30,612 bases of DNA from an uncultured Bifidobacteriaceae bacterium (GCA_964440285.1 CAYTRV010000004.1:1-30612); one strand, 5' to 3'; shown: positions 7,536-23,960, counted from the first letter of the stretch. Numbers and translations: made by a program. Notes: generated by a model from the sequence alone, not told the origin.

Positions 7536-8804
7536 ATGTCGGGTGGTATCTGTGCCGATGACAACAGCATGCTCGGCTCGACGGGACGGTCCCGTCCAAC
7601 CCACGATGCGCTGATTCCGGAGAGCATTCCGGCCTGGAGGCCGACGCTCGATCGTCTTCGGCTGGTCGAGCGGGTTCAGCTCCTTGCGACGATCGTCCTC
7701 GGGGTGGGCGCCCTGCTCCTCGCCGTCGTCATCGCCGTACGAATCGTCGACTCGGTCGAGGACCACCGGCGGACGCTGGAGATCCAGAACGGCATCGAAT
7801 CGATCCGCTACGACGCGCGCGTCATGCAGGTCCGCCAGCTCGAGTCCCGGTACGCCGACACCGGGGGGAGCATCCCGCCCATCGTCGACGAGATCCAGAC
7901 CCTTCGCGACCGCGTCGCGGCTCTTCCCATGCTGTCCGCCCGCTCGAGCGAAGCCGAGCTCCGCCAGCGGCTACTCGACGACCTGGCCGCGTTCGTGGTG
8001 CTCTCGCGTTTCGCGCCCTCCGGGATCCGGGGCGGTACCGCGGAAAGCCGGCGGGGCTACGAGCTCGCCCGGCCCGCGATCAAGCAGATGGAGCAGAATC
8101 TCGACCGGTGGGTCGCCGTCGTGCGCGCGCACACGACGCGGGAACTCGACGCAACCGCGCCACACGTCGACCGTCTCGCGGCCATCCTCGTCGGCACCCT
8201 CGCGGCGCTCATCCTGTTGAGCGTCATCCTCGCCACGATCTTGCACCAGACACGACGGCGCCTGGCCGGCGAGCTCGCCAGCTCGACCGGAGAGCTGGAA
8301 CGTCTTTCCGGAACCGATGCGCTGACCGCCCTGGACAACCGGCGCGCCTTCCGCGCCTATGCGGATGACGCGGTCAGGGCAGCCGCCGCGCTGGAGACGC
8401 CCCTGTGCGTCGCGATCCTCGACATCGACCACTTCAAGACGATCAACGACGCGTACGGACACGACGTCGGCGACCGCACCCTCGTGCGGCTTGCGAAGCT
8501 GCTGACCGCAAGCGCCCCGTCGGGGCATCGCATCGCACGTCTCGGCGGCGAGGAGTTCGGCTGGCTCATGCCGCACACGGACGCACAGGCGGGGACCGAG
8601 TGGATTCAGCGCGCCCACGACGCTTTGGCGGCGAAACCGGTCGAGGGTGCCGGCGTGCTGACGTTCTCCTGCGGAATCGCCGAGCGCGGCGGATCCTCCG
8701 AAATCGAGCACCTCCTGCGCGAGGCCGACGACGCGCTCTACGAAGCCAAGGCCGCCGGCCGCAACCGAACGGTGGTCCGCGCGGCGGTCACGCAGCCCGT
8801 CTGA
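7536..8804 (+). CDS. Membrane-anchored diguanylate cyclase (two TM helices, extracytoplasmic sensor, GGDEF domain)
   Basis: DALTALDNRR, LDIDHFKTINDAYGHDVGD and RLGGEEF. Two hydrophobic segments flank a helical sensor region. Start codon uncertain. Confidence 0.9.
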   Translation: MSGGICADDNSMLGSTGRSRPTHDALIPESIPAWRPTLDRLRLVERVQLLATIVLGVGALLLAVVIAVRIVDSVEDHRRTLEIQNGIESIRYDARVMQVRQLESRYADTGGSIPPIVDEIQTLRDRVAALPMLSARSSEAELRQRLLDDLAAFVVLSRFAPSGIRGGTAESRRGYELARPAIKQMEQNLDRWVAVVRAHTTRELDATAPHVDRLAAILVGTLAALILLSVILATILHQTRRRLAGELASSTGELERLSGTDALTALDNRRAFRAYADDAVRAAAALETPLCVAILDIDHFKTINDAYGHDVGDRTLVRLAKLLTASAPSGHRIARLGGEEFGWLMPHTDAQAGTEWIQRAHDALAAKPVEGAGVLTFSCGIAERGGSSEIEHLLREADDALYEAKAAGRNRTVVRAAVTQPV

Positions 8805-8860: not shown

Positions 8861-9919
8861 ATGGCCGACTCCGGGGCCGAGCGACTCCGCTGGCGGTTGA
8901 CCGACGACGATGGCGGTCAACCCGAGCTGTTCGACACGGTCGAAACCGTGCCGGGCACGCGGGAGCTCGCCGGACTCGAGTTCCTCCACGTTCGGGCGAA
9001 GCGCGTCATCAATCGCGTACCGGAGGCGTCGCGCATGCCGTTCAGGCACACCGTGAACCCGTACCGCGGCTGCAGCCACGCCTGCGTGTACTGCTTCGCG
9101 CGACCGACGCACGAGTACCTCAACCTCGACCGCGGCCGCGACTTCGACACCCGCATCGTCGTCAAGGTCAACGCGGTGGAGCGGGTTGAGGCGGAGCTCG
9201 CAGCACCCCGCTGGGGGCGCGAGCTGGTGGCCCTGGGGACCAACACGGATCCCTACCAGCCGTGCGAGGGGCGCTACCGACTGACGGCGGGCATCGTGGC
9301 GGCGCTCACCGCAGCGGGGAACCCGTTCTCGATCGTGACGAAGTCGCCGCTCATCCTCCGCGATCTCGACGTACTCACCGAAGCGGCCGCCCGTGGCCTG
9401 GTACACGTCGACCTGTCCGTCGGGTGCCTCGACCGCGACGTGTGGCGTCTCACCGAGCCGAGCGCTCCGAGCCCCGAGCGGCGGCTGGAGACCGTTGCGG
9501 CACTCAACAGCGCAACGGTCCCCTGCGGTGTCCTCGTCGCGCCGATCCTGCCCGGCATTTCCGACGAGCAAGGGCAGCTCGACCGTCTCGTCCGGGCGTG
9601 CGTGGACGCCGGCGCCCAGTCGATCGCCGCGGTCGCGCTCCATCTTCGGCCAGGCGTGCGGGAGCATTACCTGGGCTGGCTCGCCGGCACCCGACCCGAC
9701 CTCCTGGCCGACCACCTCATCCGCTACCGCGGCGCGTACCTCACCGCCGACGCCCGGCGGGACCTGTCCGCCCGCATCCAGGAGCTGGCCGCCCACCACC
9801 GACGTCGCACGGGGAGCCTGGCCCGACCCACCCGGCACCCCGCGGCAATGCCCGGCCACCGGGCCGAGGCGCCCACTACTGGCCGCGGCGAGCCGCAGCA
9901 ACTGCGATTGATCGAGTAA
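8861..9919 (+). CDS. Rv2578c-family radical SAM protein (SplB-like, DNA-damage inducible)
   Basis: TVNPYRGCSHACVYCFARPTHEYL (CxxxCxxC), GTNTDPYQ and SIVTKS. Start is the ATG at 8861 after the SOS box and -10; the ORF-track start at 8405 is spurious. Confidence 0.9.
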   Translation: MADSGAERLRWRLTDDDGGQPELFDTVETVPGTRELAGLEFLHVRAKRVINRVPEASRMPFRHTVNPYRGCSHACVYCFARPTHEYLNLDRGRDFDTRIVVKVNAVERVEAELAAPRWGRELVALGTNTDPYQPCEGRYRLTAGIVAALTAAGNPFSIVTKSPLILRDLDVLTEAAARGLVHVDLSVGCLDRDVWRLTEPSAPSPERRLETVAALNSATVPCGVLVAPILPGISDEQGQLDRLVRACVDAGAQSIAAVALHLRPGVREHYLGWLAGTRPDLLADHLIRYRGAYLTADARRDLSARIQELAAHHRRRTGSLARPTRHPAAMPGHRAEAPTTGRGEPQQLRLIE

Positions 9920-10004: not shown

Positions 10005-10877
10005 ATGGAACTCGCCCTCCGTCTCATCCTGGCGGCCGTTCTCGTGTGGGCCGGCGCGACCAAGGTGCCGAACGGCGCCCGGTTCACCGATGCGCTCGGC
10101 GATCACGGCGTTCCCCGCAACGCACGCAGACCGCTCGCGGTCCTGCTCGGGTTGACCGAGATCGTGATCGCGGCGGTCGTTGCCTCAGGCGTCGCGAACC
10201 ACGCCGCAGGGATCGCCGTCGCCTGCCTCGGCGGGCTCTTCGCCGTCGCCCTCGCCAGGCTGCGACTCCGGGGCAAGCGGCGAACGAGCTGCGGGTGCTT
10301 TGGTGGGAAGCGCTCCGCGAACACGCTCCTGCTCACCGCGCGCGCCGCGGCGCTGGCCGGCCTGGGGTCGGTGCTCGCCCTCGGGGTCCCCGCGATGAAC
10401 ATCGCCCCGGGCGACTCCTGGCAGGCGGTGGCAATCGTGGGGCTGGCCGGGCTCGTCGGCGCCCTCGCCCTGGCCGTGCTCGCCCTCTACCGGCAGGTCG
10501 GCGTCCTGTCGCTCCGCCTCGGCCCGCGCGCCGCCCTCGAACTCGAGGACGAGGGCCCGCCGATCGGGCAGCCGGCGCCGCTTTTGCCAGAGATCACCCG
10601 TCGCGGATCGGAGCTCGTCGCTTTCGTCTCGCTCGACTGCCGCATGTGCATCGAGATCCTCCCCGGCCTCCGGGCCCTCGCACGAGAGGGCGTGCCGGTG
10701 CATTGGCTGCGTGAAGACAAGGACGGCGACGCCTTCGAACGCTGGGGCGTGCCGGGAACCCCGTTCGTGGTGCACCTGATCGACGGCGTGGTGCGCGCCA
10801 AGGGCCTCGTCAACACGCTCGAGCAGATCGACTGGGTCATCGACCTCGGCATCGAGCGGGATCGACTTGCGGCCTGA
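10005..10877 (+). CDS. MauE/DoxX membrane domain fused to a MauD-like thioredoxin-fold domain
   Basis: The N-half resembles MauE (AGATK...E...SCGCFGG). The C-half has GQPAP, CRMC (CxxC), GTP (cis-Pro loop) and AKGLVNT, as in MauD. Confidence 0.8.
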   Translation: MELALRLILAAVLVWAGATKVPNGARFTDALGDHGVPRNARRPLAVLLGLTEIVIAAVVASGVANHAAGIAVACLGGLFAVALARLRLRGKRRTSCGCFGGKRSANTLLLTARAAALAGLGSVLALGVPAMNIAPGDSWQAVAIVGLAGLVGALALAVLALYRQVGVLSLRLGPRAALELEDEGPPIGQPAPLLPEITRRGSELVAFVSLDCRMCIEILPGLRALAREGVPVHWLREDKDGDAFERWGVPGTPFVVHLIDGVVRAKGLVNTLEQIDWVIDLGIERDRLAA

Positions 10878-11484
10878 CCGGCGCTTCGACGACGCCGGCG
10901 AGCGATTCGCTCACCACCTCGCATCGTCGACAACCCGACGGTCGTTCATCGGAGCGCTCGGCGCGGCGCTGCTCGGACTGACCGCCGCCAAGGCCCACGG
11001 CGGCACGCAGCGACCCGTCCCCGGCACCGAGCGGATCGAGGGAGGGTGGTTCGGGTTCTGCGGCCATTACTGGACGACCGGTTCCTGCAGGGGGCCGTAC
11101 CGGCTGCCACGCGTCGATCGCGAAGGCAAGCCCCTGCGGCCGGAGGACGGCCGCCCGGTCGACGACGCCGGCCGGCTGATCAACGACCTCGGTCAGCCGA
11201 TCGACGACGCCGGCAACCGCCTCCTACAACCCAGCGGGCAGCCATTGCCGAGGACCCCGCGCACCCGGCTCTGCCAGGACGGGGTCCGCGACCGCTACAA
11301 GCTTGACGACGCGGTGCTGCAGGGATCGTGGTACCGGTGCTGCAACGGGCAGATCCGCAAACTCTGGGACTGCTGCTCGGCGAGCCGACGGAGGATCAAC
11401 GGCGACACGTCGGTCCGCGGCTACTGCTACGGCAACCGGAAGGTGTTCTGCGTCGTCTACCTCGACACCGGGGTGCCGTGTTGA
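10867..11484 (+). CDS. Tat-exported Cys-rich protein resembling the methylamine dehydrogenase light chain (MauA-like)
   Basis: TTG start overlapping the upstream gene; twin-arginine signal TRRSFI; 10 Cys in the mature part. GSWYRCC, WDCC, GYCYG and VFCVV align by eye to MauA ASWVASC, YRDCC, IWCFG and YHCTI. Flanked by mauE/D- and mauF-like genes. Confidence 0.62.
   Translation: MRPDRRFDDAGERFAHHLASSTTRRSFIGALGAALLGLTAAKAHGGTQRPVPGTERIEGGWFGFCGHYWTTGSCRGPYRLPRVDREGKPLRPEDGRPVDDAGRLINDLGQPIDDAGNRLLQPSGQPLPRTPRTRLCQDGVRDRYKLDDAVLQGSWYRCCNGQIRKLWDCCSASRRRINGDTSVRGYCYGNRKVFCVVYLDTGVPC
11113..11247 (+). repeat. About six degenerate tandem 7-8 aa repeats (DxxGxP[VIL]-like) within the MauA-like protein
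   Basis: VDREGKPL / PEDGRPV / DDAGRLI / NDLGQPI / DDAGNRL / QPSGQPL. Confidence 0.7.
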
Positions 11485-11541
11485 GGACCGGACCGACCGG
11501 GCGCAGCGCCTCACTCCTTCGACCAGCGTCCGGGTGAGCGA

Positions 11542-12918
11542 ATGCCGCTCGCCGAGCTTGGGATCGCAACGGCGGCGCTGATCGCAGGCGTGTCCGGAGC
11601 GTGGTCACCCTGAGGATTCGCAATGGTTGAGACCCTCACCCCCGCAGGCTGCGGGGGCCGGCGACGACAAGCGGCCGCGATGCTCCTGTTCTCACTCGGA
11701 GCCGTCGGGGCGGCGGCGGGGCTTGGCGGGCTCCTCGGCCTGACCGGTCGAGCCCTCCCCACCAGGTGGGCCCTCGCCCTGGCGGTGACGCTCGCGCTGC
11801 TCGGCGCGCTGCGCGAAGCCGGCATCGTGCGCGTCCCCCTCCCGGATCTGCGACGTCAGGTGCCGGAACGATGGCGACGCGACAAGCCACTCGCGCTGTG
11901 GAGCACCGGATACGGCGCGATCCTGGGTGCCGGCGTCGGGACCTTCCAGCCGGTCGCGACGTTCTGGGTCGCCTGTGCGGGCGCGGCGGCCCTCGGACGC
12001 CCGGCGGTCGCTGCCCTCTGCCTCGCACCGTTCGGCCTCGGGCGGGCGCTGATGGTCGCGTTCCCCGGCGACGATCCGCTGCACCGGCTGGCGGGAGCGC
12101 ACCGCATGCTGCGACCGGTCAACGCCGCGACTCTGCTCGCATTCGCCCTGCTCCTCGCGCCGTCGATCGCATTCGCGGGAGCTCCGGCCCTGCCGACCGG
12201 GCAGCGGGATCCCTCCGTCTCGAAGAACGTGATCGCGTACACCGACGCGATGGACGGCACGACCAACGTCGTGGTGCTGGAGAACGGCGCGGCACCCGTC
12301 GTGTTCTCGGGTGGGCGGCTCCCGGCGTTGAGCGGTGACGTGCTGGCCTACGTCGATGACGCCGGGATTCGCGTCGTCCTCTGGCGCACCGGCCAGGAGG
12401 TCGCCCGCGTCGGTGGAGGCGTCGACAAGCCCGCGCTGTCGGGTCCCCGGCTGGCGTTCGTGGAGACCATCGGCGCACGGAAGCGCCTCGTCGTGCGGAA
12501 CATTGGGACCGGCAGCGTCCGGGTGGTCGCGCGGGCCGGCCCCGCGGTGGACCTCGGGCGCCCGTCCCTTCTGGGGCAGCTCATCGCATGGCACGAGTCC
12601 GGCGGCGACCGCAACCGCCTGCTCCTGCGGTCGCTCACCGGCGGCCCGACACGGATCATCGCGAGCGGATCCCGCTCGGGCCTGCACGCGAATCCGACCC
12701 TGGCGCTCCCCTACATCGCCTGGATCGAGAGCCGTGCGGAGCATTCGGCGGTTCTGCTGCGCAAGCTGCCGAACGGGGCGGTGCGACGCGTCGCGAGCAC
12801 GAGCGGGCCCGTCTTCCACTACTGGAACACCGCGATCGAATCCGGGAGGGTTTGGGTGACCCGCTGGTCCCTCGGGTCGAATCGCTCGAGGATCCTGGCG
12901 TACCGCTGGGCACGATGA
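11542..12918 (+). CDS. MauF-like (DsbD/CcdA-related) membrane protein with probable selenocysteine at codon 24, fused to a C-terminal beta-propeller
   Basis: ATG at 11542 is in frame with ORF 11623-12918 through a single TGA (11611-11613): MPLAELGIATAALIAGVSGAWSP*GFAMVETLTP, matching the WSPCG-type motif of MauF-like proteins. Also RRQVPERW and YGAILGAGVGT. Six P-x-L-S-G-x-x-(L/I)-A-(Y/F/W)-like repeats occur in the C-half. Confidence 0.75.
11611..11657 (+). promoter_or_regulatory. In-frame UGA plus putative bacterial SECIS element
   Basis: UGA, an 11-nt spacer, then GGU-U(bulge)-GAG-ACC-CUC-ACC (11625-11640), the same spacing and bulged-U geometry as the E. coli fdhF SECIS. A second hairpin, CCCGCA-GGC-UGCGGG, follows immediately. 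Confidence 0.65.
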
Positions 12919-14672: not shown

Positions 14673-16169
14673 CTACTCGACCAGCGAGGTGCCGGTCATC
14701 GCCGGGGAGGGGTCCCAGCCCACGAGCGAGCACAGCGTCGGCGCGACGTCTCCGAGCTTGCCCTCGCCGAGCCGCAAGCCGGGGCGATCGATCCAGAGCG
14801 GCACCGGGTTCGTGGTGTGCGCCGTGTTCGGGCTCCCGTCGGGTTCGAGCATCACCTCCGAGTTGCCGTGATCGGCCGTCACGGCGAGCAGCCCGCCGGC
14901 GCCGGCCACCGCGGCGCGGATGTCGCCCATGCACGCGTCCACGGCCTCGATGCCGGCGACGGCCGCCGGGATGACCCCGGTGTGCCCGACCATGTCGGCG
15001 TTCGCGAAGTTCACCACGACGAACGGGGGCGGCGCGGGCGCGGTGAGCCGCTCCACCAGCGCGCCGCGGACGCCGTCGGCGCTCATCTGCGGCGCCTGGT
15101 CGTAGGTCGCGACGTGCTGCGGGGACTGAACCAGGATCCGCTCCTCACCGTCGAACGGCTCCTCGCGGCCGCCGTTGAAGAAGTACGTGACATGCGCGTA
15201 CTTCTCCGTCTCGGCGACGTGCAGCTGGGTGAGGCCCATGCCGCTCACGTGCTCGGCGAGGCCCTGCCGGACATCCCGGGCCTCGAACGCGACCGGATAG
15301 GTCCACTCCGAGCGGTAGCGCGTCATCGTCAGGAGGACGGGTGTGGCCCGGTCACCCCGATCGAAGCCATCGAACGCCGGCTCGCCGAGCGCCTGGGTGA
15401 GCTGCCGCGCCCGATCCGGGCGGAAGTTCCAGTAGACGACTGCGTCGCCGTCGCGCACGCGACCGGCGGCGGGGTCGCCGACGACGAAGGGCTCGACGAA
15501 CTCGTCACTGACCCCGCGCGCGTAGCTCGCCCGGATGGCGTCAACGGCACGCTCGGCGTGTTCGCCCACACCGTGGACGATCGCGTCGTAGGCGCGTTTC
15601 GTACGGTCCCACCGCCTGTCGCGGTCCATTGCCCAGTAGCGACCGCAGACCGTCGCGACGGTGACACCGCCCCCCTCGAGCGCCTCTACGAACGCGAGCG
15701 CCGAGTCGGGGCGGGTGTCGCGCCCGTCGGTGAGCGCGTGGACGTAGACCCGCTCGACCCCTGATCGCTCTGCGAGGTCGAGGAGCGCCGCGAGATGGCG
15801 CTGGCTCGCGTGTACGCCCCCGTCGCCGATCAGGCCGATCAGGTGAAGGGCCGTTCGGCGCGCGACGTCCATCGACTGGGCGACGGCGGGGATGCGGTCG
15901 AACGATCCGTCGGCGATCGCCTCGTCGATCCGCACGAGCATCTGGGGCACGCGGCGCCCCGCTCCGAGGTTGAGGTGCCCGACCTCGGAGTTGCCCTGCT
16001 GGCCGTCCGGGAGGCCGACCGGGAGGCCGGAGGCGTGGAGTCGCGACGCCGACCCCTCACGGGCCAACGCGTCGAGGTTCGGGGTCGGGGCGAGGCTCAC
16101 CGCGTTGCCCGGCCCCGGCGGGGCGATCCCGAACCCGTCGATGACGACCAGTACGAGCGGACCGCTCAT
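14673..16169 (-). CDS. gpmI: 2,3-bisphosphoglycerate-independent phosphoglycerate mutase
   Basis: IDGFG, GNSEVGHLNLGAGR, GGVH, GRYWAMDRD, AETEKYAHVTYFFNGG, NADMVGHTG and ADHGNSE. Confidence 0.96.
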   Translation of the reverse strand: MSGPLVLVVIDGFGIAPPGPGNAVSLAPTPNLDALAREGSASRLHASGLPVGLPDGQQGNSEVGHLNLGAGRRVPQMLVRIDEAIADGSFDRIPAVAQSMDVARRTALHLIGLIGDGGVHASQRHLAALLDLAERSGVERVYVHALTDGRDTRPDSALAFVEALEGGGVTVATVCGRYWAMDRDRRWDRTKRAYDAIVHGVGEHAERAVDAIRASYARGVSDEFVEPFVVGDPAAGRVRDGDAVVYWNFRPDRARQLTQALGEPAFDGFDRGDRATPVLLTMTRYRSEWTYPVAFEARDVRQGLAEHVSGMGLTQLHVAETEKYAHVTYFFNGGREEPFDGEERILVQSPQHVATYDQAPQMSADGVRGALVERLTAPAPPPFVVVNFANADMVGHTGVIPAAVAGIEAVDACMGDIRAAVAGAGGLLAVTADHGNSEVMLEPDGSPNTAHTTNPVPLWIDRPGLRLGEGKLGDVAPTLCSLVGWDPSPAMTGTSLVE

Positions 16170-20158: not shown

Positions 20159-21166
20159 CTACGTGGCGGGTGGAGTTGGTTGCAAGTGTCGCGCACTCGA
20201 CAGTTCACTGCGCCGAGCGTGCAAATCCTCCAAGAGCTCCAGGATGACGCCCCGGAGCGCCTCCGGCGAGTGCCGCACAACCTGCCCTGCCGCGGCGAGA
20301 TCGCGAGTCACGACGCGCACCCCGAGGTTGCGGAGGATCGGTTCGTCGACCGGGACCGGTTCCTGTCCCTGCAGCCGGTAGCGGGCCACGGCGTCCGGAG
20401 CGAGGGGACCGTCGTGAACGATCGCCACATCCACCGCGCCATTCGCCGCCTCCATTACGTGGCGGAGGTGGTCGGCCGCGTCGAACCCCGTGGTCTCACC
20501 CGCCTGCGTCATGACGTTCCCGACGTACACGCGCAGCGCGCGGGTGTCGCGGAGCGCGTCGACGATGTCACGCACCGCGAGGTGCGGCAGGACGCTGGTG
20601 AACAGGCTGCCGGGGCCGAGCAGCACCATGTCGGCGTCGAGGATCGCGTCGATCGTGCGGGGGTGCGCGTCGGGGGTCGGATCGAGCCACACCCGGACGC
20701 ATGCGCCGGCGCCGGAACCGATCTGTGTCTCCCCGCAGACGGTGGTGCCGTCGTCGCGCTCCGCCCACAGGCGCACCTGCTCCAGCGTGGACGGCAGCAC
20801 GCGCCCATTGACCTTCAGCACCCGCGAGCTCTCGCGGACCGCGAGGTCGAAGCTGCCCGTGACCTCGGACAGGGCGGCCAGGAACAGGTTGCCGAACGAG
20901 TGTCCGGCGAGATCCCCGTCCGCGAAGCGGTGCTGGAAGAGGCGGCCGAGCAGCGATTCGTCGTCGGCGAGCGCGACGAGGCAGTTGCGGATGTCGCCGG
21001 GCGGGAGCACCCCGAGCTCCCGGCGCAGCCGACCGGACGATCCGCCGTCGTCGGCGACGGTGACGATGGCCGTGAGGTCGAGGGGCGCCGTCTTCAACCC
21101 GCGCAGGACGGTGGACAGGCCGTTGCCGCCACCGAGAGCGGCGATCCGCTGCCGGCGGTCGGTCAC
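20159..21166 (-). CDS. yvcK: YvcK/GlmR (CuvA) family gluconeogenesis and cell-wall factor
   Basis: LGGGNGLS, VTVADDGGSSGRLR, PPGDIRNC, GHSFGNL and GPGSLFTSV. GTG at 21166 overlaps the rapZ stop. Confidence 0.93.
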   Translation of the reverse strand: MTDRRQRIAALGGGNGLSTVLRGLKTAPLDLTAIVTVADDGGSSGRLRRELGVLPPGDIRNCLVALADDESLLGRLFQHRFADGDLAGHSFGNLFLAALSEVTGSFDLAVRESSRVLKVNGRVLPSTLEQVRLWAERDDGTTVCGETQIGSGAGACVRVWLDPTPDAHPRTIDAILDADMVLLGPGSLFTSVLPHLAVRDIVDALRDTRALRVYVGNVMTQAGETTGFDAADHLRHVMEAANGAVDVAIVHDGPLAPDAVARYRLQGQEPVPVDEPILRNLGVRVVTRDLAAAGQVVRHSPEALRGVILELLEDLHARRSELSSARHLQPTPPAT

Positions 21167-22047
21167 GTCGCGCCGCCTGCGGCACGGTTGCCTCGATGGA
21201 TGTCGCGATGCTCCACGGTCACGTCGTACGTGTCGGCGCGATAGCGGTTCGCCATGAGCTCGGCGATCCGGACGCTGCGGTGCCGGCCGCCGGTGCACCC
21301 GAAGGCGACCACGAGATGGTGCTTCCCCTCGGCGGCGTAGGCGGGAAGGAGGAAGTCGAGCATCGCCTCGAGCCGCTCCCGGAACGCCGCCATGCCGTCG
21401 ACCCCGTCGAGGAAGTCGATGACCGGCTGGTCACGCCCGGTGAGCGCCGCGAGACCCGGCTCGTAGAAGGGGTTGTTGAGGAACCGCACGTCGAACTGCA
21501 GGTCGACGTCGCGCGGCACGCCGTGCTTGAAGCCGAACGAGACGAACACCACCTCCAGCCGTGTGCGCGGCGAGCCGGACATGAGCGAGTCGGCAACGGC
21601 CTTGCGGAGGTCCCAAATCGAGAGGCTCGTGGAGTCGATCACCACGTCGGCCCGGTCGCGGAGTCCTTCGAGCAGCTCGCGTTCCCTTGTGATGCCGCCG
21701 AGCACCCCGCTTCCGTCGGCGAGGGGATGCCGGCGCCGGGTCTCGCGGAACCGCGTGAGCAGGGCGTCGTTCGACGCCTCCAGGAACAGCAGGCGCGGCG
21801 TGATCTCCTCGATCTCGCCGAGCCGGTGGAGCTCCCGGCTGAGCTCGTCGAACCATCGCCCGCCGCGGACGTCGCATGCGACCGCCATCCGGTCGAGCTT
21901 CGCGCCCTCGAGGCGCGCGAGCTCGACGAGCGTCGGGAGCATCCGCGGCGGGAGGTTGTCGATGCAGAACCACCCCTCGTCCTCGAAGGCGCTCATCGCC
22001 TGGCTCTTACCGGCGCCGCTCATGCCGGTGATGACCGTCAGCTCGAT
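21163..22047 (-). CDS. rapZ: RNase adapter / P-loop NTPase RapZ (YvcJ); start codon non-canonical or frameshifted
   Basis: ITGMSGAGKS, CIDNLPP, RFRETRRRHPL, SFGFKHG, DVRFLNNP and GCTGGRHRSV. There is no in-frame ATG/GTG/TTG after the uvrC stop; an ATC lies 7 nt after GGAGG. Confidence 0.92.
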   Translation of the reverse strand: MELTVITGMSGAGKSQAMSAFEDEGWFCIDNLPPRMLPTLVELARLEGAKLDRMAVACDVRGGRWFDELSRELHRLGEIEEITPRLLFLEASNDALLTRFRETRRRHPLADGSGVLGGITRERELLEGLRDRADVVIDSTSLSIWDLRKAVADSLMSGSPRTRLEVVFVSFGFKHGVPRDVDLQFDVRFLNNPFYEPGLAALTGRDQPVIDFLDGVDGMAAFRERLEAMLDFLLPAYAAEGKHHLVVAFGCTGGRHRSVRIAELMANRYRADTYDVTVEHRDIHRGNRAAGGAT

Positions 22048-22070
22048 TCCGCCACCTCCCTCGCGAACAT

Positions 22071-23960
22071 CTAGACGCCGCCCGGGGTTGCCGTCTTGTG
22101 CAGGTGATCGTAGATGTCGCGTGCGACCTTCGGCGGCAGTCCCGGTACCCCTGCCAGCTCGTCGATCGACGCCTGCAGGAACCGTTCGGGGGAGCCGAAA
22201 TGACGCAGGATCGCCGAGCGGCGCGACGGGCCGATTCCCGGGAGGGCGTCGAGGATGCTGCCGGTCATGCCCTTGTCGCGGCGGCCGCGGTGGTGCTTGA
22301 GGGCGAACCGGTGCGCCTCGTCCCTGATCGCCTGCAGGACGCGGAGCGCCGCGGACCCCTCGGGGAGGATCACCGGGTCGGACCTGCCGGGCACGTAGAC
22401 CTCTTCGAAGCGTTTCGCGAGCGAGACGGCCGGAATGCCCTCGATTCCGGCCGCAGCCATCCCGCGGAGCGCCGCGCCGAGCTGCCCCCTTCCCCCGTCG
22501 ATCACCACCAGCCCGGGTCGCTGCGCGAACGAGGGGTCGTCGCCACCTCCCGCGAAGCGCTCGAAGCGGCGGGTGATGACCTCCTCGATGCGGGCGAAGT
22601 CGTCCGCGCCGCCGTGGTACCGGGTCGCGAACGTCCGGTAGAGGGCCTTGGCGGGGGCGCCGCCCTCGAACACCACCATCGAGGCCGACGCGTACGTGGG
22701 TCCGAGGTTCGAGATGTCGTAGCACTCGATGCGCACCGGCGGCGCGGGCAGGTCGAGATGGCGTTGCAGTTCCGCGAGCGCGTCTCTGCGCCGATCCCGC
22801 GCGAGCTGGTGGCGCTTGCGGTCCTGGTCGAGCGCGAAGCGGGCGTTCCGATCGGCGAGGTCGGCGAGGCGCCGCTTGTCGCCGCGTTCGGCGTGACGGA
22901 CCTCCACCCGGCTGCCGCGCCGTTCGCTCAACAGCTGCGTGAGCGCCTCGCCCGCGACGGCGGACGGCACGACCACGAGCGGCGGGATCGCGATCGCCAG
23001 CGAGTAGTACTCGATCGCGAACTGTTCGACGATCGTGCCGCTGTCGTCTTCACCGGCGAGGTCGAGGTGGAATGACTGCCGGTCCTGCATGACCCCATCC
23101 CGCACCTGCAGCACCTGGACGTTCGCGGCGTCGTCGTCGGCCGCCAGCCCGATCACGTCGAGCGTACCGAGTCCCTCGTTGGTGGCCCACTGCCGCTCCA
23201 TGAGATGCCTGACCGCGGCGAGGCGGTTGCGGTGGATGGCGGCCTGCTCGAACTCCTGCGCCTCGGATGCGGCGCGCATCCGCTCGTCGAGCTCGCGTTC
23301 GAGGCCCCGGTACCGGCCGGACAGGAACGCGATGATCTGGTCGATGAGCGCGCGGTACTCGGTCTTGGTGATGTAGTCGACGCACGGCGCGAGGCACCGT
23401 TTGATGTGGTAGTCGAGGCACGGGATGCCGGACGGGCGCCCCGGCTCCGGCCCTTCGCACGGCCGCGACGGGAAGATCCGGGCGAGCACGTTGAGCGTCT
23501 CCCGGACCTTCGAGGCGTTGGAGAACGGACCGAAGTAGACGCGGTCGCGGCGGTGGCGCTCGCGGGTGAAGTAGACCCGGGGGTACTCCTCGTCGAGGCT
23601 GATCCCGATGTACGGGTAGCTCTTGTCGTCGCGGAGGCGGATGTTGAACGGCGGCCGGTGCCGCTTGACGAGGTTCGCCTCGAGGATGAGCGCTTCGCTC
23701 TCGCCGCCGGTGATGAGCAGCTCGACCCGGTCGATTCGGTCGACGAGCTCGGCGGTCTTGGGGTGCGAGCCCGGTCGCGGGGCGAGCGATGCCGGATCGT
23801 CCGGTGTGAGCGGCGCCCGGAAGTAGGAGAGCACCCGTTTGCGCAACGACTTGGCCTTGCCGACGTAAAGCACGGCATCGGCGGCGTCGCGGTAGAGGTA
23901 GACGCCGGGGCTGTCGGGCAGCCGGGCGAACTGGTCGCGCAGGGTGGTGCGAGCGGACAC
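22071..23960 (-). CDS. uvrC: Excinuclease ABC subunit C
   Basis: GIY-YIG domain (PGVYLY, YVGKAKSLRKRV), LRDDKSYPYI, IECYDISN, RDEAHRFA and C-terminal HhH (LPGIG). Confidence 0.97.
   Translation of the reverse strand: MSARTTLRDQFARLPDSPGVYLYRDAADAVLYVGKAKSLRKRVLSYFRAPLTPDDPASLAPRPGSHPKTAELVDRIDRVELLITGGESEALILEANLVKRHRPPFNIRLRDDKSYPYIGISLDEEYPRVYFTRERHRRDRVYFGPFSNASKVRETLNVLARIFPSRPCEGPEPGRPSGIPCLDYHIKRCLAPCVDYITKTEYRALIDQIIAFLSGRYRGLERELDERMRAASEAQEFEQAAIHRNRLAAVRHLMERQWATNEGLGTLDVIGLAADDDAANVQVLQVRDGVMQDRQSFHLDLAGEDDSGTIVEQFAIEYYSLAIAIPPLVVVPSAVAGEALTQLLSERRGSRVEVRHAERGDKRRLADLADRNARFALDQDRKRHQLARDRRRDALAELQRHLDLPAPPVRIECYDISNLGPTYASASMVVFEGGAPAKALYRTFATRYHGGADDFARIEEVITRRFERFAGGGDDPSFAQRPGLVVIDGGRGQLGAALRGMAAAGIEGIPAVSLAKRFEEVYVPGRSDPVILPEGSAALRVLQAIRDEAHRFALKHHRGRRDKGMTGSILDALPGIGPSRRSAILRHFGSPERFLQASIDELAGVPGLPPKVARDIYDHLHKTATPGGV

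What the first reader, a model, noticed from the sequence alone, without database searches (positions are those of the whole stretch)
10005..12918. Compact mau-like operon (MauE-D fusion, MauA-like, Sec-MauF-propeller) with no mauB or mauG: candidate new quinoprotein or disulfide-maturation system
Seen: three tightly linked genes. (1) MauE membrane domain plus a CxxC thioredoxin domain with the MauD-like AKGLVNT. (2) A Tat substrate with 10 Cys. (3) A MauF-like membrane domain plus a beta-propeller. Known: in methylotrophs mauBEDA/F/G build TTQ methylamine dehydrogenase, where MauD/E handle light-chain disulfides and export, MauG (diheme) completes TTQ, and MauB is the beta-propeller heavy chain. 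Neither mauB nor any CxxCH heme protein is in or next to this operon. Inference: a divergent actinobacterial system that keeps the disulfide-maturation machinery but matures a different cofactor or product, with selenium-dependent electron transfer. Substrate unknown; the downstream nitronate monooxygenase has its own promoter and may be unrelated.
Basis: partly seen in the sequence, partly recalled or inferred. Interest (0 to 1): 0.85.

Follow-up and report, generated by a model that had tools for sequence, protein, structure and literature searches.

The report
Selenocysteine-containing Mau-like protein maturation cassette
A conserved three-gene cassette in Thermoleophilia bacteria reuses the helper proteins that mature methylamine dehydrogenase (MauE, MauD, MauF) for a different, unknown cysteine-rich secreted protein, and its MauF-like membrane protein carries selenocysteine at the family's one invariant cysteine, the first clue that the long-mysterious MauF does redox chemistry.

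Summary
Three tightly linked + strand genes are present:
- Gene 1 is a MauE-MauD fusion.
- Gene 2 is a 205-aa protein with a twin-arginine leader and 10 invariant Cys.
- Gene 3 is a MauF-like membrane domain fused to a TolB-like, roughly 6-bladed propeller.

The cassette recurs in about 80 Thermoleophilia genomes with unrelated flanks. No mauB, mauG, mauA or di-heme ORF lies within ±10 kb of any of them.

Two corrections are needed. First, gene 2 resembles the MADH light chain only in its leader; its mature domain shows no sequence or fold similarity and lacks the TTQ tryptophans. A new quinoprotein is therefore unsupported, and dedicated disulfide maturation is the better reading. Second, gene 3 starts at 11542, not 11623, and reads through an in-frame TGA (11611-11613) as selenocysteine. 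The evidence:
- The TGA is invariant in 60 loci and is TGC (Cys) in 6.
- Authentic MauF has its invariant WSPCG cysteine at that position.
- The upstream codons show a coding signature.
- A covarying SECIS-like hairpin follows the TGA.
- In two related genomes the sel genes (a full selC-selD-selA-selB set in one) abut the cassette.

This selenoprotein family is not in NCBIfam or in a 2026 selenoproteome review. The cargo's function remains unknown.

The parts
10005..10877 (+). Gene 1: MauE-MauD fusion, 290 aa. The MauE membrane domain is about residues 1-150, with the CGC active-site motif at residues 96-98 (nt 10290-10298). The MauD-like anchored thioredoxin domain is about residues 151-290, with CRMC at residues 212-215 (nt 10638-10649) and RAKGLVNT at 264-271.
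   Evidence: Pfam MauE E 2.4e-18. BLASTP against authentic P. denitrificans MauD E 1e-11 and MauE E 1e-5. CxCFG and CxxC motifs conserved across loci. The MauE CXC motif was shown to be the active site in bioRxiv 10.64898/2026.03.05.709764.
10867..11001 (+). Gene 2 leader, about residues 1-45: a MauA-type extended leader (FDD..E....LA..TTRRSF) with a twin-arginine motif. It overlaps the end of gene 1 by 11 nt. The cleavage site was not determined.
   Evidence: TIGR02659 (MADH small subunit) matches residues 1-39 only, E 3.8e-5. hhalign of A1 against authentic light chains aligns residues 5-41 only, probability 93.6%, E 2e-7. Overlaps of 11-14 nt are typical across loci.
11002..11484 (+). Gene 2 mature domain, about residues 46-205. 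It is an unclassified Cys-rich domain: 10 invariant Cys, invariant H67, W155 and Y186, a beta-hairpin repeat at residues 82-130, and a C-terminal Cys as the last residue.
   Evidence: 741 homologs, none with a Pfam domain. Invariant columns. AF2 pLDDT >80 for residues 80-205. No PDB sequence or fold match. No homology to MADH light chains.
11542..12918 (+). Gene 3, corrected: a 458-aa selenoprotein. The MauF-like polytopic membrane domain spans nt 11542 to about 12195, and the propeller of about 6 blades spans about 12196-12915.
   Evidence: The in-frame peptide upstream of the TGA is conserved in 49/49 loci. Codon-position entropy is 0.59/0.35/1.13. The extended protein aligns with authentic MauF from the WSP[U/C]G motif onward. 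AF2 pLDDT 87 and TolB as top fold hits.
11611..11613 (+). TGA, the predicted selenocysteine codon (residue 24 of the corrected gene 3), in the motif AWSP-U-GF.
   Evidence: TGA in 60 loci and TGC (Cys) in 6 loci at the same aligned position. Authentic MauF has the invariant WSPCG here. In L088, tRNA-Sec, selD, selA and selB lie directly upstream of the cassette, and in L045 selA-selB do.
11639..11657 (+). SECIS-like hairpin: 7-bp G+C-rich stem, 5-nt loop AGGCU (or 8 bp with a GGC loop), with 32 nt between the UGA and the loop. It lies within codons T-P-A-G-C-G-G.
   Evidence: 95.9% of cells paired against no more than 80% in slid controls. 3 pairs have compensatory changes and 0/500 shuffles reach the observed values. 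58/59 hairpins meet the published bSECIS criteria. The U-A/C-G switch needs at least 6 independent events. Caveats: RNAalifold recovers only 3 bp and the fold z-score is -1.1.

Best explanation
This is a self-contained, translationally coupled operon for exporting and oxidatively folding one dedicated client protein. It is built from the same accessory modules that mature the methylamine dehydrogenase small subunit.

Proposed mechanism:
1. Gene 2 is made as a precursor with a MauA-type extended twin-arginine leader and is exported. The leader homology is shown; the export route is inferred.
2. Gene 1 combines a MauE domain with a membrane-anchored MauD-type thioredoxin domain. MauE is a DsbB-like, probably quinone-linked oxidase with a CGC active site. 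The thioredoxin domain's CRMC motif passes disulfides to the 10 invariant cysteines of gene 2. The domain identities are shown; the electron path is inferred from the published MauE work.
3. Gene 3 is a MauF-like polytopic membrane protein. Its single family-invariant cysteine (WSPCG in authentic MauF) is replaced by selenocysteine, decoded from UGA 11611-11613 with a downstream SECIS hairpin. This is shown bioinformatically but not biochemically.
4. Sec almost always replaces redox-active Cys, so the MauF-like domain most likely performs thiol/selenol-disulfide exchange. With Cys37 and Cys160 it may act as a CcdA-like conduit supplying reducing equivalents for disulfide isomerisation or proofreading of the multi-disulfide client. 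This step is inferred.
5. The fused extracytoplasmic TolB-like propeller is the most constant partner of gene 2. It probably binds the client as a scaffold or as a permanent partner subunit. This step is also inferred.

The biochemical role of the mature gene 2 protein is unknown. It is not a TTQ light chain.
For: Domain identities:
- MauE, MauD and MauF homologies were tested against authentic P. denitrificans proteins.
- The leader, and only the leader, is homologous to MauA.

Linkage:
- The cassette is conserved in essentially all of 82 loci, with unrelated flanks.
- 285 species-representative genomes encode a gene 2 relative.
- Genes 1 and 2 overlap by 11-14 nt. In many loci gene 3's GTG start is embedded in gene 2's last codons.
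- One database protein fuses MauE, Trx and gene 2 in a single chain.

MauE function:
- MauE complements E. coli dsbB through its CXC motif, and 8.2% of MauE entries are fused to Trx-fold domains (bioRxiv 10.64898/2026.03.05.709764).

Selenocysteine:
- The TGA is invariant with conserved residues on both sides.
- Cys occupies the position in 6 loci and in authentic MauF.
- The upstream codons have a coding signature.
- The SECIS hairpin covaries and meets published criteria.
- In L088 selC, selD, selA and selB lie adjacent to the cassette, and in L045 selA-selB do.

Propeller:
- It is confidently modelled and TolB-like.
- It is retained, with a signal-like N-terminus, in loci that lack the MauF domain.
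Against: - No experiment supports any step in this lineage.
- The window's own genome could not be checked for sel genes or tRNA-Sec. None lies in the 30.6 kb.
- The MauF-like domain was lost independently several times while genes 1 and 2 and the propeller persisted. It is therefore not indispensable, which argues against a central catalytic role.
- A rough positive-inside reading places Sec24 and Cys37 at the cytoplasmic side. That fits a CcdA-like conduit, but it was not tested and the AF2 model lacked the N-terminal 27 residues.
- The link to CcdA/DsbD_2 is weak. One homolog carries PF13386 and some JGI names say CcdA, but neither the window protein nor authentic MauF hits any Pfam or NCBIfam model.
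- Tat export of a protein that must then acquire five disulfides outside the cell is unusual. The TIGR01409 Tat score is below cut-off (14 vs 16.7).
- Part of the hairpin is forced by the Pro-Ala...Cys-Gly codons, and Cys-type loci keep a shifted hairpin.
- The very high conservation of polar residues in gene 2 suggests an enzyme or a specific binder, about which this model says nothing.
Confidence: 0.6

Rival explanations
1. This is a new protein-derived-cofactor (quinoprotein-like) dehydrogenase. The mature gene 2 protein would be the cofactor-bearing small subunit and the propeller its heavy-chain analogue, parallel to MADH alpha2beta2. The cofactor would be built from other residues (for example invariant W155, Y186, H67 or a Cys) without MauG.
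For: - The parts list parallels mauF-B-E-D-A: a leader-bearing small Cys-rich protein, a propeller partner, and MauE, MauD and MauF.
- The propeller is the constant partner of gene 2.
- Gene 2 has an unusually large number of invariant polar and aromatic residues, including W155, Y186 and H67, as expected for an active site.
- Cysteine-tryptophylquinone enzymes show that MauG is not the only route to a quinone cofactor (my own knowledge, not tested here).
Against: - The mature domain has no sequence homology to TTQ light chains (hhalign 0.2%; PDB profile search).
- It has no fold match.
- By my eye comparison of the conserved motifs (not a statistically supported alignment), the quinone-bearing Trp position would fall near residue 139, which varies (W, Q or G, and G in the window protein), and the cross-linked Trp position would be Tyr.
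- The propeller is not homologous to MauB (0.3%). It has about 6 blades and is TolB-like.
- No electron acceptor (amicyanin or cytochrome), no MauG and no amine-related genes are linked in 82 loci.
Confidence: 0.15
2. This is a general housekeeping disulfide-forming system. Gene 1 would be the lineage's general DsbB/DsbA equivalent, and genes 2 and 3 would be neighbours or ordinary clients rather than a dedicated system.
For: MauE is proposed to be a generalist oxidase, present in many species without MauA. The window's flanking genes are housekeeping.
Against: - The three genes stay together in about 80 genomes while the flanks change completely.
- They overlap or abut in a way that suggests translational coupling.
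- Gene 2 carries the leader type otherwise specific to the MauE/D/F client MauA.
- A MauE-Trx-gene 2 fusion exists.
Confidence: 0.1
3. The TGA at 11611 is an ordinary stop. A 23-codon upstream mini-ORF would be translated separately, and gene 3 would start at ATG 11623, as automatic gene callers assume.
For: - An ATG lies 4 codons downstream of the TGA in all loci.
- All database gene models start there.
- Rfam finds no element.
- No sel genes lie in the window.
- The local fold energy is not exceptional (z = -1.1).
Against: - The upstream peptide is contiguous with MauF homology: WSP-C-GY in authentic MauF against WSP-TGA-GF here.
- 6 loci have TGC at this position.
- The TGA is invariant. 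TAA and TAG are never seen in 60 loci.
- The hairpin covaries and meets bSECIS criteria.
- The sel operon abuts the cassette in L088 and L045.
Confidence: 0.05

Closest known systems
Methylamine dehydrogenase (mau) gene cluster of Paracoccus/Methylobacterium: mauF-B-E-D-A-(C)-J-G
   Same: It has homologs of MauE, MauD and MauF. By my own knowledge of the 1990s mau genetics, these are the three accessory proteins needed for small-subunit accumulation. It also has a client with the same unusual extended twin-arginine leader as MauA, and the genes are tightly clustered.
   Different: - MauE and MauD are fused.
- MauF is fused to a propeller and uses Sec in place of the invariant Cys.
- The client's mature domain is unrelated to the TTQ light chain.
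- MauB, MauG, amicyanin, MauJ, MauM and MauN are absent.
- The host is Thermoleophilia (Actinomycetota), not a proteobacterial methylotroph.
[quoted passage not shown]
   Same: Gene 1 has the CXC-FG active-site motif. It also belongs to the class of MauE fused to a thioredoxin-fold domain that the preprint reports for 8.2% of MauE entries.
   Different: The preprint treats MauE as a generalist and does not describe a dedicated client, a MauF partner, a propeller or selenium. It mentions MauF nowhere (0 occurrences).
CcdA/DsbD-family thiol-disulfide membrane transporters, and the rhodanese/DsbD-fusion selenoprotein TsoB (NF045694)
   Same: Both are polytopic membrane proteins with a (seleno)cysteine after Ser-Pro in the first transmembrane helix. 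Some homologs are labelled CcdA or carry PF13386. TsoB shows that Sec can occur in DsbD-like membrane proteins (PMC13188914).
   Different: The window protein and authentic MauF hit no Pfam or NCBIfam model, including NF045694. The motif is WSPUG with a single Sec, not UxxxxU. There is no rhodanese domain, and a propeller is fused instead.
TolB (periplasmic 6-bladed beta-propeller of the Tol-Pal system)
   Same: It is the best structural match for gene 3's C-terminal domain (Foldseek E 6e-10, about 250 aligned columns).
   Different: Identity is only 18-19%. There is no TolB N-terminal domain and no Tol-Pal context. The propeller is tethered to a MauF-like membrane domain, or carries its own signal sequence in variants.

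Membership tests
MauE (PF07291; DsbB-like oxidase) | Match to the family profile above the curated cut-off | tested here: met
   67.1 bits against a cut-off of 27, E 2.4e-18, residues 3-126.
MauE (PF07291; DsbB-like oxidase) | CXC active-site motif followed by F-G | tested here: met
   C96-G-C98-F-G in the window. CxCFG found in 60 of 75 gene 1 ORFs recovered; the remainder are mostly mis-called ORFs. Motif defined in bioRxiv 10.64898/2026.03.05.709764.
MauD (TIGR02661) | Homology to authentic MauD across the anchor, CxxC and C-terminal motif | tested here: met
   30% identity, E 1e-11 over residues 154-280 against P. denitrificans MauD 19-179, including CRMC/CPVC and RAKGLVNT/RAKGLTNT.
MauD (TIGR02661) | Equivalog-level score (curated cut-off 188.6 bits) | tested here: not met
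   29.1 bits, and only residues 153-195 match. It is a MauD-like domain, not an equivalog.
Methylamine/aralkylamine dehydrogenase light chain (TTQ; TIGR02659) | Extended leader with a twin-arginine motif | tested here: met
   TIGR02659 matches residues 1-39 at E 3.8e-5. hhalign probability 93.6% for residues 5-41.
Methylamine/aralkylamine dehydrogenase light chain (TTQ; TIGR02659) | Homologous mature domain (12-Cys fold) | tested here: not met
   Mature-only hhalign gives probability 0.2%, E 0.26. No PDB hit with a single sequence or a profile. No Foldseek hit at E<0.001. 23.6 bits against a cut-off of 196.85. 10 Cys rather than 12.
Methylamine/aralkylamine dehydrogenase light chain (TTQ; TIGR02659) | The two tryptophans that form TTQ | tested here: not met
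   Authentic chains have invariant W114 and W165 in precursor numbering. No statistically supported alignment of the mature domains exists. In my eye alignment of the shared motifs, the corresponding gene 2 positions are variable (W, Q or G; G in the window) and Tyr186.
MauF | Homology to authentic MauF membrane domain | tested here: met
   hhalign 94.9%, E 4.6e-8. BLASTP of the extended protein, residues 19-173 against MauF 74-234, gives 30% identity. The RVPxPxxRxQVP motif is shared.
MauF | Invariant W-S-P-C-G motif | tested here: met
   It is invariant in 3 authentic MauF proteins and the gene 3 family, with C replaced by TGA (Sec) in the window.
Bacterial selenoprotein | Conserved in-frame UGA with conserved coding sequence on both sides | tested here: met
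   49/49 and then 60 loci have the TGA. Codon-position entropy upstream is 0.59/0.35/1.13.
Bacterial selenoprotein | Homologs with Cys at the Sec position | tested here: met
   6 loci have TGC, and authentic MauF has Cys.
Bacterial selenoprotein | [quoted passage not shown] | tested here: met
   58/59 hairpins meet the criteria. The window hairpin is -14.8 kcal/mol with 32-nt spacing. Covariation, with at least 6 independent switches. Caveat: RNAalifold gives only a 3-bp core.
Bacterial selenoprotein | Sec-decoding machinery (selA, selB, selC, selD) in the same genome | not testable with these tools
   None is present in the 30.6-kb window, and the rest of that genome is not available. In relatives the criterion is met: L088 has tRNA-Sec, selD, selA and selB next to the cassette, and L045 has selA-selB.
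Bacterial selenoprotein | Selenium in the protein | not testable with these tools
   This needs 75Se labelling or mass spectrometry.
MADH heavy chain (MauB) | Homology to the 7-bladed MauB propeller | tested here: not met
   hhalign probability 0.3%. No tblastn hit in 82 loci. The model has about 23 strands, or about 6 blades, and its best matches are TolB.
Canonical mau cluster | MauG (di-heme, two CxxCH motifs) linked to the light-chain gene | tested here: not met
   No MauG hit, and no ORF of at least 100 aa with two or more CxxCH motifs, within ±10 kb in 82 loci. The rest of these genomes was not searched.
Tat substrate | Twin-arginine signal peptide | tested here: inconclusive
   T-R-R-S-F-I followed by a hydrophobic stretch is invariant. 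TIGR01409 scores 14 bits against a cut-off of 16.7. Pfam TAT-signal models are weak in 4 of 30 members.
CcdA/DsbD_2 (PF13386) | Match to the family profile; two membrane-embedded redox Cys | tested here: inconclusive
   One homolog (P0202) has a precomputed PF13386 hit, and some JGI names say CcdA. The window protein with U written as C gives no Pfam hit at E<=1. Candidate redox residues are U24, C37 and C160, the last being at least 90% conserved.

The most novel reading that the evidence does not exclude
MauF's function has been unknown since the mau genes were described. In this reading it is a redox-active membrane thiol (here selenol) oxidoreductase. This Thermoleophilia cassette would then be the minimal, ancestral-like form of a general 'Mau-type' machinery that recognises an extended leader and builds cross-linked or cofactor-bearing small proteins. 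The mature gene 2 protein, bound to the propeller, would be a new extracytoplasmic enzyme with a protein-derived cofactor or an unusual Cys/Trp/Tyr cross-link, made without MauG.
Probability: 0.15. Interest if true: 0.9.

Novelty: new variant of a known kind. Interest (0 to 1): 0.72.

Why it matters
1. It provides the first functional clue for MauF. Natural Sec-for-Cys replacement at the family's only invariant cysteine marks that residue as redox-active. This can be tested directly in Paracoccus with a MauF C78S mutant.

2. The MauE/MauD/MauF trio and the MauA-type leader appear to form a portable maturation module that can serve a client unrelated to methylamine dehydrogenase. This extends the recent finding that MauE is a DsbB-like oxidase.

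3. It adds a membrane selenoprotein family that neither NCBIfam (release 20.0) nor a 2026 review of the prokaryotic selenoproteome lists, and that every public gene model truncates at the UGA. In some genomes the sel operon sits beside this gene, so it may be a main reason these soil and freshwater Thermoleophilia keep the Sec trait.

4. The client is a very conserved, widespread protein (285 species-level genomes) of completely unknown function and fold.

Tried and rejected
- **PDB sequence searches.** Single-sequence and profile searches with gene 2 gave only chance hits (tyrosinase cofactor protein, heparin lyase).
- **Foldseek.** The gene 2 model against the PDB gave nothing below E 0.8. 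The model is weak for residues 1-79.
- **Motif resemblance to MauA.** I suspected from motifs (CGHxWTTGSC vs CDYWRHC; WYRCC vs YRDCC) that the mature domain was a diverged light chain. hhalign on mature-only alignments in local, low-mact and global modes rejected this.
- **Propeller as a MauB homolog.** Rejected.
- **Rfam.** A scan of the whole window at gathering thresholds found no family.
- **RNAalifold.** On the 59-sequence alignment it returned only a 3-bp core. The hairpin claim therefore rests on explicit pair counting and controls.
- **Fold energy.** The energy of the window's UGA region is not better than shuffles (z = -1.1).
- **Pfam and NCBIfam.** Searches with the extended gene 3 (U written as C) and with authentic MauF gave no model.
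- **Radical SAM and NMO neighbours.** The upstream radical SAM gene (Rv2578c family) and the downstream NMO were considered as cassette members. They are linked only among close relatives (L011-L024) and were rejected.
- **Giant repeat proteins.** The proteins matching gene 2 residues 82-130 are eukaryotic repeat proteins (DUF3659, plectin, RHS-like), which is uninformative.
- **Flanking-ORF clustering.** It was swamped by spurious antisense ORFs in this GC-rich DNA. Only the S8 peptidase family was real.
- **Literature.** Searches for a MauF selenoprotein found nothing relevant.
- **Not done.** The third homologous-protein search and the metagenome scan were not used, because they would not have changed the conclusions.

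Full report
**1. What is in the sequence**

Three + strand ORFs occupy 10005-12918.

Gene 1 (10005-10877, 290 aa):
- It has a Pfam MauE domain (E 2.4e-18, residues 3-126) with a C96-G-C98-F-G motif.
- Its C-terminal half aligns with authentic Paracoccus denitrificans MauD over essentially the whole of MauD (30% identity, E 1e-11). The alignment includes the membrane anchor, the CxxC motif (CRMC vs CPVC) and RAKGLVNT vs RAKGLTNT.
- It falls far below the MauD equivalog cut-off, so it is a MauD-like domain rather than an equivalog.

Gene 2 (10867-11484, 205 aa):
- It overlaps gene 1 by 11 nt.
- It carries T-R-R-S-F-I followed by a hydrophobic stretch, and 10 cysteines.

Gene 3, as mechanically called, is 11623-12918 (431 aa). 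It has no Pfam hit.

To compare with real Mau proteins I fetched annotated mau clusters from plasmids of Paracoccus, Methylobacterium, Indioceanicola, Novosphingobium, Pseudomonas and others.

**2. Gene 2 is MauA-like only in its leader**

- Gene 2 belongs to a family of 741 database proteins. None has a Pfam domain, and the few that carry a source name are called 'hypothetical protein'.
- An alignment of 30 members (A1) shows 10 invariant Cys and many invariant polar and aromatic residues: H67, R82, D84, W155, Y186 and the C-terminal Cys205.
- The NCBIfam model for the MADH small subunit matches residues 1-39 only.
- Profile-profile comparison with seven authentic TTQ light chains (A3) aligns residues 5-41 only, at 93.6% probability and E 2e-7.
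- With the leaders removed there is no signal: probability 0.2%, E 0.26 in local, permissive and global modes.
- PDB sequence searches with one sequence and with the profile find no light chain.
- An AlphaFold2 model has pLDDT above 80 for residues 80-205 but is poor for 1-79. It has no Foldseek match below E 0.8.
- No statistically supported alignment of the mature domains exists. When I lined up the conserved motifs of the two families by eye, the quinone-bearing Trp would fall at a variable site (W, Q or G; Gly in the window protein) and the cross-linked Trp at Tyr186.

The mature protein is therefore not a TTQ light chain. What it shares with MauA is the unusual extended leader.

**3. Gene 3 is MauF-like plus a TolB-like propeller**

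- The gene 3 family has 322 hits. Some are labelled CcdA or TauE by JGI, and one carries PF13386.
- It aligns with authentic MauF at hhalign 94.9%, E 4.6e-8, sharing an RVPxPxxRxQVP motif.
- AlphaFold2 (pLDDT 87) gives a helical membrane domain followed by about 23 beta-strands, or about 6 blades.
- Foldseek's best matches are TolB (E 6e-10). No MADH heavy chain appears in the top 50.
- hhalign against MauB gives 0.3%.

**4. The cassette is conserved; mauB and mauG are absent**

- 285 species-representative genomes encode a gene 2 relative. The best 80 are essentially all Thermoleophilia MAGs (Miltoncostaeaceae, Gaiellaceae, Gaiellales).
- A tblastn survey covered 82 loci with up to 10 kb of flank on each side. 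MauE-MauD, gene 2 and the propeller gene sit together wherever the contig allows.
- No hit to P. denitrificans MauB, MauG or MauA was found anywhere.
- No ORF has two or more CxxCH motifs.
- The flanks differ completely between distant loci. The radical-SAM (Rv2578c family) and nitronate monooxygenase neighbours of the window persist only in close relatives.
- Genes 1 and 2 typically overlap by 11-14 nt.
- In about 7-8 loci, including cultured Miltoncostaea marina, gene 3 lacks the MauF-like domain. It keeps the propeller behind a signal-like segment.
- On a gene 2 tree these losses are scattered. The propeller, not the MauF domain, is therefore the constant partner.

**5. Gene 3 is a selenoprotein**

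An in-frame TGA lies 4 codons upstream of the called ATG. Six lines of evidence support it as a Sec codon.

1. In all 49 loci first examined, and then in 60, this TGA is invariant. TAA and TAG never occur. It is flanked by conserved residues...ALIAGVSGAWSP-TGA-GF[AS]-MVETxTPAxCG.
2. Six loci have TGC (Cys) at that position in the same context.
3. Authentic MauF from three genera reads W-S-P-C-G there, and this is the only invariant Cys of the family. The extended protein aligns with MauF from this motif onward.
4. The 18 codons upstream of the TGA vary mostly at third positions (entropy 0.59/0.35/1.13), like the downstream codons (0.57/0.41/0.95).
5. A hairpin starts 25 nt after the UGA. Its 7-bp stem has a loop of CGUGU, CGGGU or AGGCU.
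   - It is paired in 95.9% of cells, against no more than 80% for slid controls.
   - Three pairs show compensatory changes, and no shuffle out of 500 reaches the observed values.
   - The main switch, U-A to C-G, couples a synonymous Thr site to a Gly/Ser replacement. It needs at least 6 independent events on the tree.
   - 58 of 59 hairpins satisfy the published bSECIS criteria (PMC13188914).
6. In L088 a tRNA-Sec, selD, selA and selB lie directly upstream of the cassette. In L045 selA-selB do as well.

Caveats:
- RNAalifold recovers only 3 bp.
- The window's fold energy is not exceptional.
- Rfam has no match.
- Part of the stem is imposed by the Pro-Ala/Cys-Gly codons.
- Cys-type loci keep a shifted hairpin.
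- The window itself holds no sel gene or tRNA.

The corrected gene 3 is 11542-12918 (458 aa) with Sec at residue 24. In many loci its GTG start lies inside gene 2's last codons (CC-GTG-CTGA), which suggests translational coupling.

**6. Comparison with what is known**

- A March 2026 preprint shows that MauE from two phyla complements E. coli dsbB through its CXC motif.
- The same preprint reports that 8.2% of MauE entries are fused to thioredoxin-fold domains and that only about 10% of MauE-bearing species have MauA. Gene 1 fits this class.
- The preprint does not mention MauF.
- A 2026 review tabulating prokaryotic selenoprotein families has no entry matching methylamine, MauE, propeller or TolB. 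The nearest is the rhodanese/DsbD-fusion selenoprotein TsoB.
- NCBIfam release 20.0 has no model that hits the extended gene 3 or authentic MauF.
- All public gene models of the family start after the TGA.

**7. Mechanism**

The best-supported reading is a dedicated export and oxidative-folding operon.
- MauE (oxidase) passes disulfides to the MauD-like thioredoxin domain.
- That domain oxidises the ten cysteines of exported gene 2.
- The MauF-like selenoprotein performs (seleno)thiol-disulfide exchange, perhaps as a reductant conduit for isomerisation.
- Its propeller holds the client.

The domain identities, the linkage and the Sec codon are shown. The electron paths, the topology and the propeller-client contact are inferred.

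The quinoprotein idea is not excluded. The parts list parallels MADH and gene 2 is very conserved. But no positive evidence supports it.

**8. Verdict**

This is a new variant of the Mau maturation machinery with an uncatalogued selenoprotein and an unknown client. Interest is 0.72.

Noticed in passing
L002:10128-11345 and 19 other loci (e.g. L046, L054, L066, L090): A secreted subtilisin-like Peptidase_S8 gene lies directly downstream of gene 3, on the same strand, in 20 loci. All 20 are Sec-type, and identity falls as low as 43%. It may be a clade-specific fourth component, for example for leader or pro-peptide processing, or it may be plain synteny. It is absent from the window.
   Followed up: partly
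L004 (Thermomicrobium roseum plasmid NC_011961.1), 1780-2232 and 7001-9750: This is another non-canonical system. It has two MADH-light-chain-like genes (one annotated, one unannotated tblastn hit), several hypothetical proteins and a 596-aa MauE fusion protein, in a Chloroflexi-type organism. No mauB or mauG is annotated in the stretch shown.
   Followed up: no
window:8405-9919 vs 7536-8804: The mechanical ORF for the Rv2578c-family radical SAM protein (504 aa) overlaps the GGDEF diguanylate cyclase ORF by about 400 nt. The family match begins only at residue 184, so the real start is probably near 8950.
   Followed up: no
window:12943-14031: The nitronate monooxygenase/FabK-like gene starts 24 nt after gene 3's stop, and no promoter-like or terminator-like site was detected between them. 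It may be co-transcribed in this genome even though it is not part of the conserved cassette.
   Followed up: partly
window:11110-11256 (gene 2 residues 82-130): A short beta-hairpin repeat (G-x-P-[VL]-x-D-x-x-G-R-L) is modelled with pLDDT up to 95. It matches many tandem copies in giant eukaryotic repeat proteins (DUF3659, plectin-like, RHS-like). This is probably convergent repeat similarity.
   Followed up: partly
P0244 (453 aa; database protein, no locus): This is a single polypeptide joining MauE, the thioredoxin domain and a gene 2-like domain of a distinct subfamily (...YHFCGHVYTTDSCPHP...KIKC). It is either a genuine gene fusion or an assembly or frameshift artefact. Its genomic context could not be fetched.
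   Followed up: no
window:16176-19193 (- strand) and 14673-16169: This is a housekeeping glycolytic block: gap-pgk-tpi followed by cofactor-independent phosphoglycerate mutase. rapZ and uvrC lie further on (21163-23960). The cassette therefore sits in core chromosome, not in an island. GC content is uniform at about 0.70-0.76.
   Followed up: partly
L001, L029, L034, L036, L037, L074, L078 (and possibly L075): The MauF-like membrane domain has been lost from gene 3 several times independently, while the propeller, gene 1 and gene 2 are kept. Whether these genomes have also lost the Sec machinery, or encode MauF elsewhere, is unknown.
   Followed up: partly
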